From: the human T2T-CHM13v2.0 reference genome, Homo sapiens
Direction: 5' to 3' (one strand)
Length of the DNA: 64,000 bases
NCBI RefSeq assembly: GCF_009914755.1
Contig: NC_060947.1
Below, piece by piece: positions 23,501 to 29,500 of the stretch (the first letter of the stretch is position 1; each line of letters begins with the position of its first letter). The translations under genes were made by a program, and so were the position numbers. The notes below the pieces were generated by a model. That model was not told the DNA's origin. It ran no database searches and was given only the letters and a program-made list of their open reading frames with translations.

Positions 23501-26500
23501 CCAATCCCTTTTTCCTCATCCATAAAAAAAGGGATTGGATCCTATTTTCATTTTAGCTACTTATTCTCTTATCTGATATATTAGTTATCTTTCCTAACTC
23601 TAATATCTGATACATTAGCTATCTTTCCTAACTCCATGGAGTTTGTACATTTGATGAATATCTCATCTAGTTTTCATCTAAGTCATTGACCAAAAGTTTT
23701 GGTCAGGATAGTGTCCTATGGCCTGTCATGCCTCTATAATTGACATCTGTAGCTCTGGCCTCTGGAATGTCTACCTGTCCAAACTTCTCTCTGCTTGATT
23801 TGATAGATTAAAACTTTTTTTTTCTTTCAAGTTAAATATCTGGGCCTAATTACCCTTATGATTTCAGTAGATTAGAGGAAGCTAATGGTTATTGAACAAC
23901 TGTTATTTGTCAGACTTTTGTTTACTGTTTTATTTACTTTAGTTCTCATGTTAACTTCATTTTTATAGAGAATAAAGAAGGAGGTACAACTTAGAAATTA
24001 ATATTACTCAGCTAGGAAGTATCAGAGCTGGAATGTCAATCTATGCTCTTGCTTTATTCCTTATGCCACATTCTATCTAGCTTACCCTCTGCTAACAATT
24101 CCTGGCAGACTTATTTTTATTTCTGTTTTAAATTCTGAACACTTTTGTTGAAGCATCTTTTTCTAGTCCAATTGCTGTTGCTGTTTTTATATAGCTGATC
24201 AGAGTTGACTTATTACCCTGAATCCAGAGAACAGTCTTGCAACCAGCATTTCAGAGTTATTCAAACTGCTTGAAATAGTTTTGACATAACCTAGCAGCCT
24301 TATTGTGAACAGAATTTTGCAAATTATATGAACCCCATACATTAAGGCAAACCATTTATTCAGCAAGTACTTTTCTGAAACTTTTTATGTAGCAGGCACA
24401 GAGAACGGGACAGAGCTCTTGCCCTTAAGAATATCTCAAGCAGGACCTTTATTACTAATACTTTGTTAGTAATCACTGTATCTCCTTACAGGTAGTGAAA
24501 GTATACTTTAAAATATTATGTTGGTCTTAAGGCTTTAGGATATCATCATTAGCTAGTTTGTCATTGCTAAAGAAATACCTGCGTTCTATTGCTAAACTTA
24601 TAGACAAGTTCAAAATGCATATATAGTGCTCTGCTTTTTATTTGATAGTCCTCTTTATGTAGTTGCTGATTTTCTTTAAAAGTAGTAAGAGTACTTTTAA
24701 AATATTGCATTGATTTTAATGTTTTAGTGTTTTTCTAGTTTCTCATTGCTGAAAATAGTCCAGTTTTATTTTGTTAAACTTAGAGCCTGCTGTGTTTTGA
24801 AATTTGAAGTAAGAATACATGATGGTGATATTATTAACTTATTAGGGGGCTGCTAAAATGTATTTGTTGGAACAGTAAACTTGTCAATAAAAATGATTAT
24901 GAAGTATTTTAGTCTCAAACACTGTTGACGGCTCCAAGATTTCCTACCTTCTCAAAATTCTCTGTTCCCTTGGCTTTTATTTAATGCTCTATTACCCTGG
25001 TTTTCTTCCATTATCTTTAATTATCCCATCCCTCTTTAAAAAAAAATCTTTATCATAGTATTTTCTTCTTTCTGCCCCGTAAGTGTGTGTCATTCCCCAA
25101 AGCTCTGTTCTTGGTTCTTTTTAGTTGTTCTTGTGATAATAGGGTAGGAAGACTAGGAGAGCTAGAGATCCATATATGGAAGACATGAGACTAAAGAGGG
25201 AAGCAGGAAGTGGGTGGTTAGATCATAAAATGTCTTGTAAGCCAAGTTAGATAGTAGGAACTGAGGGTAAAGAGAGTTTTAAACAGAAGAGCGATATTTT
25301 ACAGGTCCCAGGGATTAAGGAAAATGTTAAAAAAAAAAAGAAAAGCAACATGAGCTGATTTATATTTTATTGTTTTTAATTTTCAGTTTTAATTACAAAA
25401 GTAGTACTTGTGAAAAATTCAAACATTACAGACGTGTAAAAAGCCTCTTTTCTCCCTCACTCTCAGGCCTGCTTCCTAGGGACAACCACAATTAGTAGTT
25501 TTGAGGTTATCCTTCTGGCCCTTTCTTTTCTGGGTGTATACAATCGTGCATATGCGGAGAGACATGGTTTTTTTCTGTTTAAAGAAGAATAAAAATCTGC
25601 ATTTTGGAGAGAGATCACTCTGTCTGTAATATGGAGGATAGATTGGAGGGAGGGAAGGCTAGAAACAGGTTGGTAAGTTAGGAAACTATTTTAATAGACC
25701 AGGTGAGAGATGATGGGGGCTTGATTTGGGCTAGGGTGATGATAGTGGATATGGTGAGAAGCAAATGGATTTGAGATCTATTTAAGAGATAGAGTCAGCC
25801 GGACTTTCTGGTAGATTTGGGGAGAATGATGAGGAAAAAAGTGGACTGAAGGATGAAACTGAGGTTTTGGCTTAGGCAACTGGTTGAATTCACTAAGATA
25901 AGACTGAAAGAGGAATAGATTTTGTAGGAAGAAAGGGGGAGATGATGAGTTACATATACTTGGATACGTTGAGTTTTGGATACTTGTGGTTCATTCAAAT
26001 GGAGATTTGTAATATATGTCAGAAAGGTAGAGAAATCTGTTCTAGAGATACCTGTTTCTGAGTCGTCAGTGTCCAAATGGCAAATAAAATAATAAGAATA
26101 GACTAGCTTGCCTTGGGGAAGGTGGCCAAGGATGGAGTCCTGAAGAGCTCCAACATTTAAGGGACAGAAAGAAGAATAGGAATTGTAAGGGAGGATCTGC
26201 CAGAGAAGTTGTAGGTATGATATCAGAGACCAAGAGAAGAGAATTTTTTGAGAAGAGAGTAGTCAACAGTGTCATGCTGCAGAAAGTAAGACAAGGACTA
26301 AAAAGTCCACTGGATTTGGTTATGGGGCCATTGGTCACTTGATGAGAATAATTTCTATGATATGGGAGTAGAAACCTGATTTCTATCCCATGTGCCCCAT
26401 GTCTAAACAGTCACTGACTCCTGTCACTTCTTTTGTTATTGTCTTTCCCTTTCTCAGTAGCACTTCTTTCCATTTTTTTTTAGTACTAGACCGTATACAT

Positions 26501-29500
26501 AGTCTTCAAATTAATAGCAGTTTGAGCACCTACTCTCTCGTAGACTCTGTTGGAAATACAAAGACATGTAAGATATGATTCCTTTTCCAAGGAGGGGGAA
26601 GTAAAGGGGAGAAGGGAAGTAGTTTGAGCACCTACTATGTGCCAGGCACTTTATGTATGATAATTCATTGAATCCTCATAGTAATCCTGTGAGGTCAGTG
26701 CTATGCCCCGCCCCCCCGCTTTCTTTTTTAATAGAAGCGGAAACTAATACCCAGAGCTTAAGTGACTTGCCCAAGGTCACATAGAGAGGTAGAGCTGATA
26801 TTTGAATGAAGATTTGTTCGATTCCAAAGCCTGTGCTTTTTAAAATAATGCTCTGCTGCTTGTGATGTAGTTTATAAGAAGATAAAATTGCACAAAAGTT
26901 AGATAGCAGTCAATTTAAGCAACAGCTTTGAGATAGTCATAGGAGAGATATCACTGTGTGATTGATTATCACAAATTGTATAGATGATAATTCCTAGACT
27001 TTGATAAATTTTCAGGATAAAATCTTTCATTATTACTCCTTGGGGTTTTTAGTGCCTGGCAGAGAGTAGATGCTTAATGAGTGTTTGAATGAATTCAGAG
27101 GGAGAGATGATGGTAAGTAGGGGTAGCTAGGCAGGGCTTTTAGAGGAGGTGGGATTTAGGCTGGCTCTTAAAAGATGAATATATTTTGAAAGAAAGATGG
27201 GGAGGGATTTCCAGGCAGATGAACAGAGTAGGTGAAGAATAGAGGGGAGGGAAGTGTAACTCAGAGGTCGCAAACAGGCAGCCTATATCCTGGATAAGGC
27301 CTGTAGATGTGTTTTGTTTGGCCCATGTGATGTTTTCTAAAAATGGGAATTAGTTATCAGCATGTAAAAGTTTTCATAAAAATATGGATTTCCCACTACT
27401 GCTGAAAAACTTAAAGATCTGGTAACCCAGAGTCCCCATTCCTGCATGGCAAATGAACCAGAGCTGAGTAACTGCTGCTCACTCTACTATCTCATTGGGT
27501 AGATGTTTACACTCCATATGTGGCCAACTTTGCTCATGTACGGTTACTGGCCTGGCCCCTGTTAGCAAGTTTGCGACCCCTGGTGTAAAGTATTTTGGGG
27601 GTTGGGGAGGCAGTGGGGTTTGGGAGGACTGTGAATAAACCAAATTGGGCTGGAGTGAAAGGCTTTATTAATGTGGATCATTGGGGAATGTATAGGTAGA
27701 TTGGAAGCCAAATTGTGAAGGACCTTGAATGCCTCCCCATAGGCATGGAGGAGCCATTGAAAGTGTTTTGAATGGGGAGTGACATGTTCAAAGTAGTGTT
27801 AAGAAGATGAGCCTGGCAGTAGCCTGTCGGATGAAGTAAAATTGAGTAAGGCTTTTTGGTGGGGAGGTGAGTTATGGAGCTATTGTAGTAGTGTAGACAT
27901 GAGATGATAAGGGGCTTCCTTAATGTTTGTGGTAGGTTATAAAATAAGGAATGGATTTGAGAGAGATTACAAAGGATTAGCAATGTATTGAATGTGGATA
28001 GAGGAGTCAAAAGTGGGAAAAAGTTAGGGTCATTAACTGGAAAGGAAATCAATAGCAGGAGTTCATTTGGTTATTGTTTTATGTTTGTTTTTTGTTACTT
28101 TTTTTTTTAATTTTTGTGTGTATGTGAGGTTGGTGGGGGCAAGTGGGACAGGGAAGACTGATTATATGGTATATATCTATTACATGTTGAAATTTTAACA
28201 GTATTATAGTTGGAGATTGTTTCTGCTCTAAGTATTAAACTACTAAAAAGTGAAATGACTTAACATGAGAGCCAGTTCTATAGCCCAGGGTAGTTTAGGT
28301 GCCTACCTTGCCACTAAACCACACTACTCAGCTGAAAATCACCTTCTTGTTGTGGCTTTGAGCATTTCACTCCACTTTGGTCCTTCTAAATTTCATGGGT
28401 TAGTGCTTTGCTTATTTTGAATTTCACTTCACCTGTTATAATTACTAGATTTGTCATATTTGTCTTCCAGTTGATGTAGAACATTCTCATGTTCGATTTC
28501 TGGGAAACCTGGTATTGAACCTGTGGGATTGTGGTGGGTAAGTACCATCTGCTTACTTGTTTGTGAAGCCGATGTCAGTAATCGTGGCATCTAGTATATC
28601 AGCATGGCGAATACACCTAGAGTAACTATCATTTGTAATAGATTGGATAGAATTACTTTAAAATTGACACTTGAGTCAATAAACATCTCTGACTTTTATG
28701 GAATTGTGAAAATGCCCTCTGTATGTGACATGTTTAAATAGCGCTAATCCAAGCTCCATCTAGGTATCTGTAGTTTGGGATAGATTATCCCCTTTCGTGG
28801 AGGAATAAATTAGGTTTCTGTCTCAGGCAGCCTGACACCAGTGCTGAGCTCTTAGCTGTCACACCATACTACTTTGTTCTTAGTTATAATACGTCAATAA
28901 TTTTCTCCAGGCAGTCTCAATACTGTAGATCAGACACTGAGCACACATTCTCTAGCTAAGTTACCTACTTTTTGGAAGAGTAGGAGTTAGCTCTTCCTCT
29001 TATGAGCAAAATATTCACCACATATTCCATCACAAATGTACACACACTGTGGATGTATGCTGGCTATGGTGCATCTCTGTGCTGAAGGAACAGTGTGCAC
29101 TGCACAGTGGATAGGAGCATAGGTTTTGGAGTCAGATTGGGGTTTGTACCTCAGCTCTGTTAGCTGTGTTATCTTGGGTAAATCATTTAAACTCTCTGAG
29201 CCACAGTTTCTTCATCTGTACAGTAGTGAAGGCAATGGTACCAGCTCATAGGGTTGTTTTGATGATTAAGTAAGATAATTTATACAAAGTTGCATAGCAG
29301 AGTGCCTCACAAAATACATAGATATTGTTAGCTCAGTGTATCTCGCTCTTAGCATAGAGCCAGCCATAGAGTGGGTGCTCAGTGAATATTTGTTGAAAGA
29401 ATAATGCAATAGCTAAATACTCTTTAAGAAAATGACTCCATTCCTGCTAGCAGATGGATCACTTAACATCCTAGCACATATCTCCATACAAATCCTTCCT

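What the first reader, a model, noticed from the sequence alone, without database searches (positions are those of the whole stretch)
26484..26600. The RagB-long switch-I exon looks like an exonised L2 retrotransposon tail
Seen: exon 4 and its donor read ...gcagtttgagcacctactctctcgtagactctgttggaaatacaaagacat|gtaagatatgattccttttccaaggag. This follows the antisense L2 3' terminus as I recall it (ttgagcacctact...ctgtggg.gatacaaaga..taagacatggtccctgccctcaaggag). The same 16-mer agtttgagcacctact recurs at 26621 in the adjacent MIR, and MIR tails are L2-derived. Recognisable L2 body continues at 27100-28050. Known: this 28-aa insertion defines the brain-enriched RagB-long isoform, which has altered nucleotide binding and GATOR1 interaction. 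Inference: a mammalian neuronal mTORC1-tuning isoform arose when an L2 was recruited into the GTPase switch I, with the donor GT formed inside the element. I do not know whether this origin has been published.
Basis: partly seen in the sequence, partly recalled or inferred. Interest (0 to 1): 0.8.

Follow-up and report, generated by a model that had tools for sequence, protein, structure and literature searches.

The report
RagB-long exon from an L2 tail
The second half and the splice donor of the small brain-enriched exon that turns RagB into its "long" form come from the tail of an ancient L2-type jumping element, a good case of old mobile DNA reused inside a nutrient-signalling switch.

Summary
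Exon 26484-26567 is an AG/GT-flanked, 84-nt, in-frame cassette. No Dfam/RepeatMasker library was available. I therefore built reference models from copies in the window's own genome.

- Two independently chosen sets of L2-type 3' tails (89 and 65 copies) both hit 26522-26590 (13.9 and 13.4 bits, E about 8e-4 in the window).
- All 8 of 8 resampled models hit the same place.
- The exon's own downstream motifs recur in register in other tails: 7 copies against 0.3-0.6 expected, and 5 against 0.7-1.3.
- Against those 12 copies, the positions not used to choose them beat 1999-2000 of 2000 shuffles.
- A MIR model matches only the shared first 29 nt.
- The donor GTAAGA lies on the family's conserved TAAGA(C/T)ATG block.
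- An antisense L2 body follows at 27128 to about 28003, after a nested MIR and a DNA transposon.

New: the 16-mer shared with the neighbouring MIR occurs only 4 times in the genome, so those two copies are directly related. The insert is almost invariant in 115 eutherian proteins. The acceptor and the first 35-40 nt of the exon have no assigned origin. I found no publication of this origin.

The parts
26484..26567 (+). RRAGB alternative exon 4 (84 nt, 28 codons, phase 1), the RagB-long switch-I insert
   Evidence: AG/GT borders, frame and translation; annotation supplied with the finding; function from passages of PMC9481464
26460..26483 (+). Pyrimidine tract (T-run 26473-26481) and acceptor AG; origin not assigned
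   Evidence: Read. No repeat profile reaches it
26522..26590 (+). Stretch homologous to the antisense 3' tail of the L2-type LINE (model positions 22-103); covers codons L89-T103, the donor and 23 nt of intron
   Evidence: profiles; conditional shuffles; motifs in register; alignment and shuffles against 12 sub-variant copies
26568..26578 (+). Donor GTAAGATATGA. The T of GT and the following AAGA.ATG lie on the family's conserved TAAGA(C/T)ATG block. The G sits on a column with no majority base
   Evidence: Consensus and rows of alignment A2; 5 other tails carry TAAGAYATG in register
26516..26534 (+). Left copy of a 19-nt direct repeat (AGCAGTTTGAGCACCTACT), inside the exon (codons S87-Y92)
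   Evidence: the repeat finder family D1, 95% identity, spacing 102; 16-mer is 4 copies genome-wide
26618..26636 (+). Right copy of the 19-nt direct repeat, forming the start of the neighbouring MIR
26626..26877 (+). MIR-type SINE, antisense to the gene, nested behind the tail
   Evidence: 72-copy MIR profile, 96.8 bits, E 2.1e-29
27051..27094 (-). Short L2/MIR-type tail in the opposite orientation; complementary to the MIR tail and to the exon core
   Evidence: Profile of model positions 1-50, E 0.0013; inverted repeats I1 (27 nt, 85%) and I2 (17 nt, 88%)
27128..28003 (+). Antisense L2-type body (model positions about 230-730), interrupted by the DNA transposon
   Evidence: 27128-27236, E 0.043; 27739-27790, E 9.1e-5; one hit at model 37-525, 28.5 bits, E 9.9e-11 with nested inserts removed; 27791-28003 aligns in register with the L2 at 25595; score 22 against 12.6+-1.85; 0 of 300 shuffles
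27262..27582 (.).
   Evidence: the repeat finder I1, 93% complementary. Flanking GTGTAACT/GTGTAAAG read by eye
25595..26294 (+). Second, better preserved antisense L2-type body fragment upstream of the exon; not part of the exon
   Evidence: E 5e-12; 305 bits, E 1.4e-92 with a profile built from 12 pieces of other loci

Best explanation
The 3' 46-52 nt of RRAGB exon 4 (codons S87/L89 to T103), its 5' splice site and at least the next 20-30 nt of intron descend from the 3' tail of an L2-type LINE lying antisense to the gene.

The element supplied an open frame and a near-donor. The family's conserved TAAGA(C/T)ATG block needs only a G in front of it to read GTAAGA. A pyrimidine tract and an AG of unassigned origin 84 nt upstream supply the acceptor.

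The resulting 84-nt cassette places 28 residues in switch I of RagB. The exon was already fixed in the eutherian ancestor and has been held almost invariant since.

Shown: the homology, the exon structure, the nested repeat layout, and conservation among eutherians. Taken from print: that the insert lowers GTP binding and changes GATOR1 and Raptor binding. Inferred: the order of events, and whether the tail belongs to the long L2 that continues at 27128 or to a separate short L2 fragment.
For: (1) The core TTGAGCACCTACT marks a high-copy tail family: 2958 genomic matches against 6 for the reversed control.

(2) A profile of 89 tails hits 26522-26590 at 13.9 bits, E 8.8e-4. These tails were chosen by the 28 nt at the extreme terminus (411 genomic matches, control 0), which share only 7 nt (TTGAGCA, the start of the 13-nt core) with the exon's match. 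All 6 half-samples and 2 other model lengths hit it too (8 of 8, E 1.3e-4 to 0.042, ends at 26571-26589).

(3) A second, independent sample gives 13.4 bits, E 7.6e-4: 65 non-MIR copies among 81 core-bearing sites taken in order along contig 1.

(4) Keeping the core and replacing 26535 onward, the real score is reached in 0/2000 shuffles and 1/2000 random pieces, and in 6/2000 and 13/2000 with the second model.

(5) The exon's own motifs recur in register in other tails. Core+N{15,40}+ATACAAAGA: 7 other sites, control 0, 0.29-0.63 expected. Core+N{30,60}+TAAGAYATG: 5 other sites, 0.70-1.27 expected. All three anchors together: 1 other site.

(6) Against those 12 copies, shuffling only unselected positions reaches the real score as follows:
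- 26565-26620: 0/2000
- 26535-26555: 8/2000
- 26535-26569: 3/2000
- 26579-26620: 0/2000
- all unselected stretches: 1/2000

(7) MIR profiles match only 26522-26550 (8.4 bits) or nothing.

(8) An antisense body of the same family follows at 27128 to about 28003. The core-to-anchor distance is 444 nt after removing the nested pieces. In the 5 of 30 body-anchored loci where a tail was detected in the same orientation upstream of the anchor, it is 363, 433, 473, 491 and 1012 nt.

(9) Insert conservation: of the 120 proteins listed, 115 have both flanks. Of these, 73 read LDRLHSLQ...TKT, 41 read LDRIHSLQ...TKT and 1 reads ...TRT. Source names span all four eutherian superorders.
Against: - Profiles lacking the core do not find the exon at E<=100.
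- With the broad models, the L2-specific part alone is only marginal: 35/2000 and 17/2000 shuffles, 6/2000 and 8/2000 random pieces; 89/2000 and 20/2000.
- The 715-position model does not report the exon in the window at E<=1, or on the exon region alone. In the joined test it aligns the tail in a different register with low posterior probability.
- The 21 nt upstream of the core do not match the family's terminus.
- At 13-14 bits the exon lies in the lowest fifth of core-bearing copies, although an exon frozen for about 100 My might be expected to be better preserved.
- The 12 sub-variant copies were chosen with motifs taken from the exon. Only their unselected positions count.
- The family name L2 comes from recall, not from a curated library.
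Confidence: 0.8

Rival explanations
1. Architecture variant. The exon's L2 piece is not the tail of the long L2 at 27128+. It is a separate 83-86-nt, 5'-truncated L2 fragment that integrated into the tail of the MIR. Reverse transcription was primed on the homologous MIR tail, so the insert starts in register after the core. The 19-nt direct repeat at 26516-26534 and 26618-26636 is its target-site duplication. The donor is still L2-derived.
For: The 19-nt direct repeat is 95% identical and identity is lost abruptly beyond it. The 16-mer occurs 4 times in the genome against 2958 for its 13-nt core, so the shared AGT prefix has a frequency of 2 in 2956 elsewhere. The other two carriers are unrelated copies. 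A purine-only stretch (26589-26620) ends the interval. A second case of two cores 47 nt apart in the same orientation was seen among the first 100 sites on contig 1.
Against: It makes the same orientation and the fitting 444-nt spacing to the L2 body a coincidence. Putting the exon's upstream flank in front of the MIR does not improve the MIR score (68.7 against 71.8 bits). Internal homology-primed integration of L2 is my conjecture, with no precedent checked here.
Confidence: 0.35
2. Only the 16-19-mer is repeat-derived. It is a duplicate of the start of the neighbouring MIR, for example the target-site duplication of an unrelated 83-nt insert. The rest of the exon and the donor resemble L2 by chance.
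For: Genome-wide rarity of the 16-mer. Failure of core-less profiles. Marginal results for the L2-specific part with the broad models.
Against: Motifs in register at 7 against 0.3-0.6 expected and 5 against 0.7-1.3. 0-8 of 2000 shuffles on unselected positions against the sub-variant copies.
Confidence: 0.06
3. The piece is a MIR tail rather than an L2 tail, for example a tandem duplicate of the start of the adjacent MIR.
For: MIR and L2 tails share the first 45-50 nt. The MIR-type profile scores 8.4 bits on 26522-26550. The repeat spacing is 102 nt.
Against: The 72-copy MIR profile finds nothing on the exon even with filters off. The MIR-type alignment stops at 26550, while L2-type alignments run to 26588-26590 and score 5 bits more. 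After the 16-mer, the two 102-nt units match at about half of the positions, by eye.
Confidence: 0.05
4. The exon is an old vertebrate exon and its likeness to the repeat is coincidence or convergence.
For: None found. The first 35-40 nt and the acceptor have no repeat assignment.
Against: All the statistics above. No non-eutherian name appears among the 120 proteins listed, though 33 of the 153 hits were not shown.
Confidence: 0.03

Closest known systems
Exonised MIR and L2 elements catalogued by Sela et al. 2007 (PMC2394776; passages read)
   Same: An intronic, antisense old repeat supplies part of an internal alternative exon and one splice site. That paper counts 103 human L2 exonisations, 62 of them antisense. 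In 31 the element gives the 5' part and in 28 the 3' part of the exon.
   Different: In that catalogue only 6 TE exons were orthologous between human and mouse (4 MIR, 2 DNA, no L2). This exon is protein-coding, shared by all eutherian superorders sampled, and nearly invariant. I could not see that paper's supplementary lists, so RRAGB may be listed there.
Orthologous MIR exons such as DMWD exon 4 and MYT1L exon 5 (named in PMC2394776)
   Same: Repeat-derived exons old enough to be shared by human and mouse, with a conserved splicing pattern.
   Different: Those derive from MIR. Here the MIR model fails beyond the shared tail and the L2-type tail fits.
Antisense Alu exonisation
   Same: An antisense retroelement carries near-consensus splice signals that single changes activate.
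   Different: In Alu the antisense poly(A) gives the pyrimidine tract and acceptor (stated in PMC2394776). Here the element gives the donor, and the acceptor side is unassigned. This case is also far older and under strong constraint.
RagB-long isoform (Figlia et al. 2022, PMC9481464; passages read)
   Same: It is this exon: 28 residues in switch I, brain-enriched, low GTP affinity, weak DEPDC5 and Raptor binding, and titration of the GAP interface of GATOR1.
   Different: The paper does not discuss the exon's origin (0 occurrences of 'transpos', 'retrotranspos' or 'LINE-2').

Membership tests
L2-type LINE 3' tail (antisense) | 13-nt tail core TTGAGCACCTACT | tested here: met
   Exact at 26522-26534. 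2958 genomic copies against 6 for the reversed control
L2-type LINE 3' tail (antisense) | Continuation in register into the stretch shared with MIR (model positions 35-50) | tested here: inconclusive
   9 of 16 positions identical in the profile alignment. Shuffling 26535-26555 reaches the real score in 8 of 2000 trials against the 7 copies of set A
L2-type LINE 3' tail (antisense) | L2-specific stretch beyond the MIR-shared part (...ATACAAAGA...TAAGA(C/T)ATG...CCT...) | tested here: met
   7 and 5 other tails carry the exon's motifs in register against 0.3-1.3 expected. 0 of 2000 shuffles for 26565-26620 and for 26579-26620. With the broad models only 6-89 of 2000
L2-type LINE 3' tail (antisense) | Extreme terminus (the 21 nt upstream of the core, as in the 28-mer used) | tested here: not met
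   All profile alignments start at the core. Swapping upstream flanks changes nothing
L2-type LINE 3' tail (antisense) | Continuity with a body of the same family, same strand, fitting spacing | tested here: met
   Body at 27128-27236, 27739-27790 and on to about 28003. Spacing 444 nt against 363-491 nt (and one of 1012) in 5 other copies. Tail-anchored and body-anchored loci join in one model
L2-type LINE 3' tail (antisense) | Match to a curated L2 model (Dfam/RepeatMasker) | not testable with these tools
   No repeat library is held. Rfam gave 7 weak, unrelated matches, all below gathering score
MIR SINE | MIR body following the shared tail | tested here: not met
   The 72-copy profile gives no hit on 26440-26620 with filters off. 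The 13-copy core-anchored profile stops at 26550. The same profiles find the neighbouring MIR at E 2.1e-29 and 1e-21
Exonised transposed element | At least one splice site inside the element | tested here: met
   The donor at 26568 lies inside the aligned tail in 8 of 8 models and in alignment A2. The acceptor is not in any recognised repeat
Exonised transposed element | Exon absent where the element is absent (lineage test) | not testable with these tools
   No other vertebrate genome is held. Protein names among the 120 listed hits are all eutherian; 33 hits were not shown
Retro-insertion flanked by a target-site duplication (for the 19-nt repeat) | Direct repeats bounding a discrete insert, with an empty site in an outgroup | tested here: inconclusive
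   Repeat found and shown to be non-independent. The empty site is not testable. The upstream flank does not restore a MIR terminus

The most novel reading that the evidence does not exclude
The exon was made by one repeat landing in another. An L2 fragment was reverse-transcribed from a primer annealed to the homologous tail of a resident MIR. This left a 19-nt duplication, one copy of which now encodes S87-Y92 of RagB-long. The three tails left in this 600-bp stretch are the exon core, the MIR tail and an inverted tail at 27051-27077. They form alternative RNA stems, with the inverted tail pairing either with the exon or with the MIR tail, and these stems help set neuron-specific inclusion.
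Probability: 0.2. Interest if true: 0.7.

Novelty: new member of a known kind. Interest (0 to 1): 0.55.

Why it matters
RagB-long is one of the few isoforms known to tune mTORC1 tissue-specifically. Its defining feature is this 28-residue insert in switch I. Showing that more than half of the insert and its splice donor are L2-derived has several consequences.

- It dates the innovation to no later than the eutherian ancestor.
- It explains why the insert has no counterpart in RagA or in other GTPases.
- It gives a rare example of an L2 exonisation that became a strongly constrained coding exon. The 2007 human-mouse catalogue found no orthologous L2 exon among 103.
- L94 is the only one of the 28 residues whose mutation raised GTP binding. 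Its codon, 26537-26539, lies in the L2-derived part.
- It suggests concrete splicing experiments on the surrounding repeat tails.

Tried and rejected
- **Window self-comparison.** blastn and single-sequence nhmmer returned only the 19-mer and short tail matches. This was too weak to decide anything.
- **Short motifs recalled from memory**. GGGATACAAAGA with 2 mismatches gave 16 hits against 7 expected. CCCTCAAGGAGC gave 4 against 5.3. Neither was informative, but the first led to the tail copy at 12302-12374.
- **Rfam**: nothing relevant.
- **DNA search of the genome with 26500-26620**: found only itself.
- **Single-sequence searches of window pieces against the first loci**: nothing, because most tail copies are short.
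- **First long model**: contaminated by an Alu in the seed. Rebuilt.
- **Extending the L2 model from four loci**: failed. Seeding with the window's upstream L2 worked, but showed that copy ends near 26294, so it does not supply the acceptor.
- **Special relation between the exon core and the inverted tail.** 15 of 17 identity looked notable, but 9 of 89 random tails reach it. Dropped.
- **Tandem duplication of a 102-nt unit.** Rejected, because identity falls to about half directly after the repeat.
- **27-residue protein query:** too short.
- **The 33 weakest of the 153 protein hits:** could not be displayed.

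
Full report
**What is there.** Window 26484-26567 is an AG/GT-bounded exon of 84 nt. It enters in phase 1 and keeps the RRAGB reading frame open (1125 nt, 374 codons plus stop). It adds [27 protein letters not shown], plus a split codon, between ...GATI and FDVEH.... 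Passages of Figlia et al. 2022 (PMC9481464) state the following:
- These 28 residues lie in switch I of the brain-enriched RagB-long.
- They lower GTP binding and weaken binding to Raptor and to the DEPDC5 interface of GATOR1.
- Among single mutants of the 28 residues, only L94A raised GTP binding.

By my numbering, the L94 codon is 26537-26539.

**A reference for the repeat.** No Dfam or RepeatMasker library is held, and sequence recalled from memory may not be used. The window's own 3.1-Gb genome can be searched with patterns, so I collected copies from it.
- *Terminus-anchored tails.* A 28-nt pattern from an obvious tail copy elsewhere in the window (12347-12374, minus strand) has 58 matches with up to 1 mismatch and 411 with up to 2. 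The reversed control has 0 in both cases. This pattern lies upstream of the part that matches the exon, apart from 7 shared bases. I used 89 of these copies (29, 60) and left out the window's own copy.
- *Body-anchored loci.* A 17-nt pattern from the putative body (27774) has 40 matches against 1 for the control.
- *One family.* Iterated nhmmer joins terminus-anchored and body-anchored loci into one 715-position model. The tail and the body therefore belong to one interspersed family.

**Profile results.**
- The 89-copy tail profile hits 26522-26590 (model positions 22-103) at 13.9 bits, E 8.8e-4 for the window. A first 29-copy version gave E 0.0037.
- Six random half-samples and two other model lengths all hit the same place. 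That is 8 of 8, with E 1.3e-4 to 0.042 and alignment ends at 26571-26589, so every one spans the donor.
- A second sample used 81 sites carrying the exact 13-nt core, taken in order along contig 1. It split into 13 MIR-type and 65 other rows after dropping three rows: two near-duplicates and a second core in one locus. The 65-copy profile gives 13.4 bits, E 7.6e-4, for 26522-26588.
- Conditional tests kept the flank and core and replaced the rest. The real score was reached in 0/2000 shuffles and 1/2000 random window pieces, and in 6/2000 and 13/2000 with the second model.

**Results against.**
- Profiles trimmed to exclude the core do not find the exon even at E<=100 with filters off.
- With these broad models, the part beyond the MIR-shared stretch is only marginal: 35 and 17 of 2000 shuffles, 6 and 8 of 2000 random pieces; 89 and 20 of 2000.
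- The long model does not report the exon at E<=1.
- The 21 nt upstream of the core do not match the terminus.
- The exon's score lies in the lowest fifth of the core-bearing copies listed.

**The sub-variant test.** The broad profiles have ...GGATACAGCAGTGAAC... where the exon has ...GGAAATACAAAGACATG.... I asked whether other tails carry the exon's own words in register.
- Core+N{15,40}+ATACAAAGA has 7 other genomic sites (control 0; 0.29 expected with uniform base frequencies, 0.63 with observed composition).
- Core+N{30,60}+TAAGAYATG has 5 other sites (0.70 or 1.27 expected).
- All three anchors, including AAGGAG, have 1 other site.

I fetched these 12 copies and aligned them. The tool's consensus reads ...TGGGnATACAAAGATGAnTAAGACATGGTnCCT.... 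The exon and intron read TGGAAATACAAAGACATGTAAGATATGATTCCT.

I then scored the exon region against profiles of these copies, shuffling only positions that played no part in choosing them:

| Copies used | Stretch shuffled | Shuffles reaching the real score |
|---|---|---|
| 7 ATACAAAGA copies | 26565-26620 | 0/2000 (real 35.5 bits; shuffles 25.0+-1.5) |
| 7 ATACAAAGA copies | 26535-26555 | 8/2000 |
| 5 TAAGAYATG copies | 26535-26569 | 3/2000 |
| 5 TAAGAYATG copies | 26579-26620 | 0/2000 |
| all 12 | all unselected stretches | 1/2000 |

This settles that the homology runs from the core through the donor into the intron. The donor GTAAGA sits on the conserved TAAGA(C/T)ATG block. The G occupies the column just before it, where the copies have no majority base and two of the twelve also read G.

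**L2 rather than MIR.** A 72-copy MIR profile finds the neighbour at 26626-26877 (96.8 bits, E 2.1e-29) and three further MIRs at E<=7e-16, plus two weaker fragments. It gives nothing on 26440-26620 with filters off. A 13-copy core-anchored MIR profile scores 8.4 bits and stops at 26550.

**Surroundings.** On the plus strand, which is antisense to the element, the long model hits 27128-27236 (model 230-343, E 0.043) and 27739-27790 (model 474-525, E 9.1e-5).

I removed the nested pieces: 26621-27099, and a DNA transposon with 14-nt inverted termini at 27262-27582 plus 8 nt. One alignment then runs from model 37 to 525 at 28.5 bits, E 9.9e-11. However, its tail part is in a different register with low posterior probability.

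27791-28003 aligns in register with another L2 at 25595 (score 22 against 12.6+-1.85; 0 of 300 shuffles).

The core-to-anchor distance is 444 nt after the removals. In the 5 of 30 body-anchored loci where a tail was detected in the same orientation upstream of the anchor, it is 363, 433, 473, 491 and 1012 nt.

The upstream L2 (25595-26294; 305 bits) ends about 190 nt before the exon. It does not supply the acceptor, whose origin stays open.

The repeat finder reports a 19-nt direct repeat, 26516-26534 and 26618-26636, 95% identical, 102 nt apart.
- The 16-mer occurs 4 times in the whole genome, two of them here. Its 13-nt core occurs 2958 times.
- The other two carriers are an unrelated MIR and an unrelated tail.
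- Family resemblance between L2 and MIR tails therefore cannot explain the shared prefix. The two copies are directly related.

Two layouts remain open:
- *(a) One long L2.* Its tail is the exon piece, with a MIR and a short inverted tail nested into it. The 19-mer would then have been homogenised later, or matches by an unlikely coincidence.
- *(b) A separate short L2 fragment.* It integrated into the MIR tail, with the 19-mer as its target-site duplication.

Layout (a) is favoured by orientation and spacing. Layout (b) is favoured by the sharp repeat boundaries. Swapping the upstream flanks does not discriminate. In both layouts the donor is L2-derived.

**Age and constraint.** I searched with the window's open frame around the exon. 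Of 166 candidates, 153 proteins scored E<=10, and the best 120 were listed. Every organism name given belongs to a eutherian: primates, rodents, lagomorphs, carnivores, cetartiodactyls, bats, perissodactyls, moles, Tamandua, Dugong, Trichechus and Orycteropus.

Of the 120, 115 have both flanks. Their inserts are [27 protein letters not shown] (73), the same with I at the fourth residue (41), and one with K to R. The other 5 are partial or read-through predictions.

The exon was therefore fixed in the eutherian ancestor and is under strong purifying selection. The 33 hits not listed could not be seen, and no other vertebrate genome is held. Presence or absence outside eutherians is unknown.

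**In print?**
- RagB+exonization: 0 papers.
- RRAGB+exoniz: 0.
- RagB+alternative splicing+transposable element+exon 4: 0.
- RRAGB+transposable+exon: 3 papers, unrelated by title and abstract.
- Figlia et al. has no occurrence of 'transpos', 'retrotranspos' or 'LINE-2'. A 2023 review (PMC10212514, passages) says nothing on origin.
- Sela et al. 2007 (PMC2394776, passages) count 103 human L2 exonisations. Only 6 TE exons were orthologous between human and mouse (4 MIR, 2 DNA). Its supplementary lists were closed, and subscription papers are not searched. A listing of RRAGB somewhere cannot be excluded, and a RepeatMasker track may already show the overlap.

**Verdict.** This is a new member of a known kind, an exonised old LINE tail. 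It is unusual in that it is coding, functionally characterised and frozen across eutherians.

Noticed in passing
window 26624-26650 with 27051-27077; also 26522-26538 with 27061-27077: The inverted tail downstream is complementary to the MIR tail (27 nt, 85%) and to the exon core (17 nt, 88%). In the predicted fold of 26440-27110 the MIR tail pairs with it. The whole stretch folds 5.3 sd better than its shuffles, though only 20 shuffles were made. These could be alternative stems affecting exon 4 inclusion. The exon-to-inverted-tail identity itself is not unusual (9 of 89 tails reach it).
   Followed up: partly
window 25595-26294: A second, much better preserved antisense L2-type body fragment lies in the same intron (305 bits, E 1.4e-92). 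It starts at model position 527, just where the alignment of the body downstream of the exon stops (525). I take this to be an effect of the anchor block in my model, because 27791-28003 aligns with it in register.
   Followed up: partly
window 12305-12374(-), 20348-20860, 29854-30238, 51757-51883, 60768-60989, 61952-62399, 14432-14617, 63096-63389: Further L2-type fragments across the RRAGB locus. MIR-type copies lie at 19070-19194(-), 29086-29301(-), 29567-29692 and 60033-60261. None was checked against the other alternative exons listed in the annotation (51405-51579, 54014-54384).
   Followed up: no
L190 (G000 contig 1, 21771120-21771340): Two exact copies of the 13-nt tail core lie 47 nt apart in the same orientation. 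This is a second example of tail-next-to-tail arrangement among the first 100 core sites. It hints that these elements tend to land in each other's tails.
   Followed up: no
proteins P0001-P0004: Four predicted proteins match the query over 85-93% of its length. Two carry source names (Equus przewalskii 'RagB-like', 167 aa; Phyllostomus hastatus isoform X1, 415 aa) and two are unnamed. The match includes residues that in human are intronic, upstream of the acceptor. These are probably read-through gene models.
   Followed up: no
window 27254-27261 and 27583-27590: The DNA transposon with 14-nt inverted termini is flanked by GTGTAACT and GTGTAAAG (6 of 8 identical, read by eye). This fits an 8-bp target duplication of a hAT-type element.
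   Followed up: no
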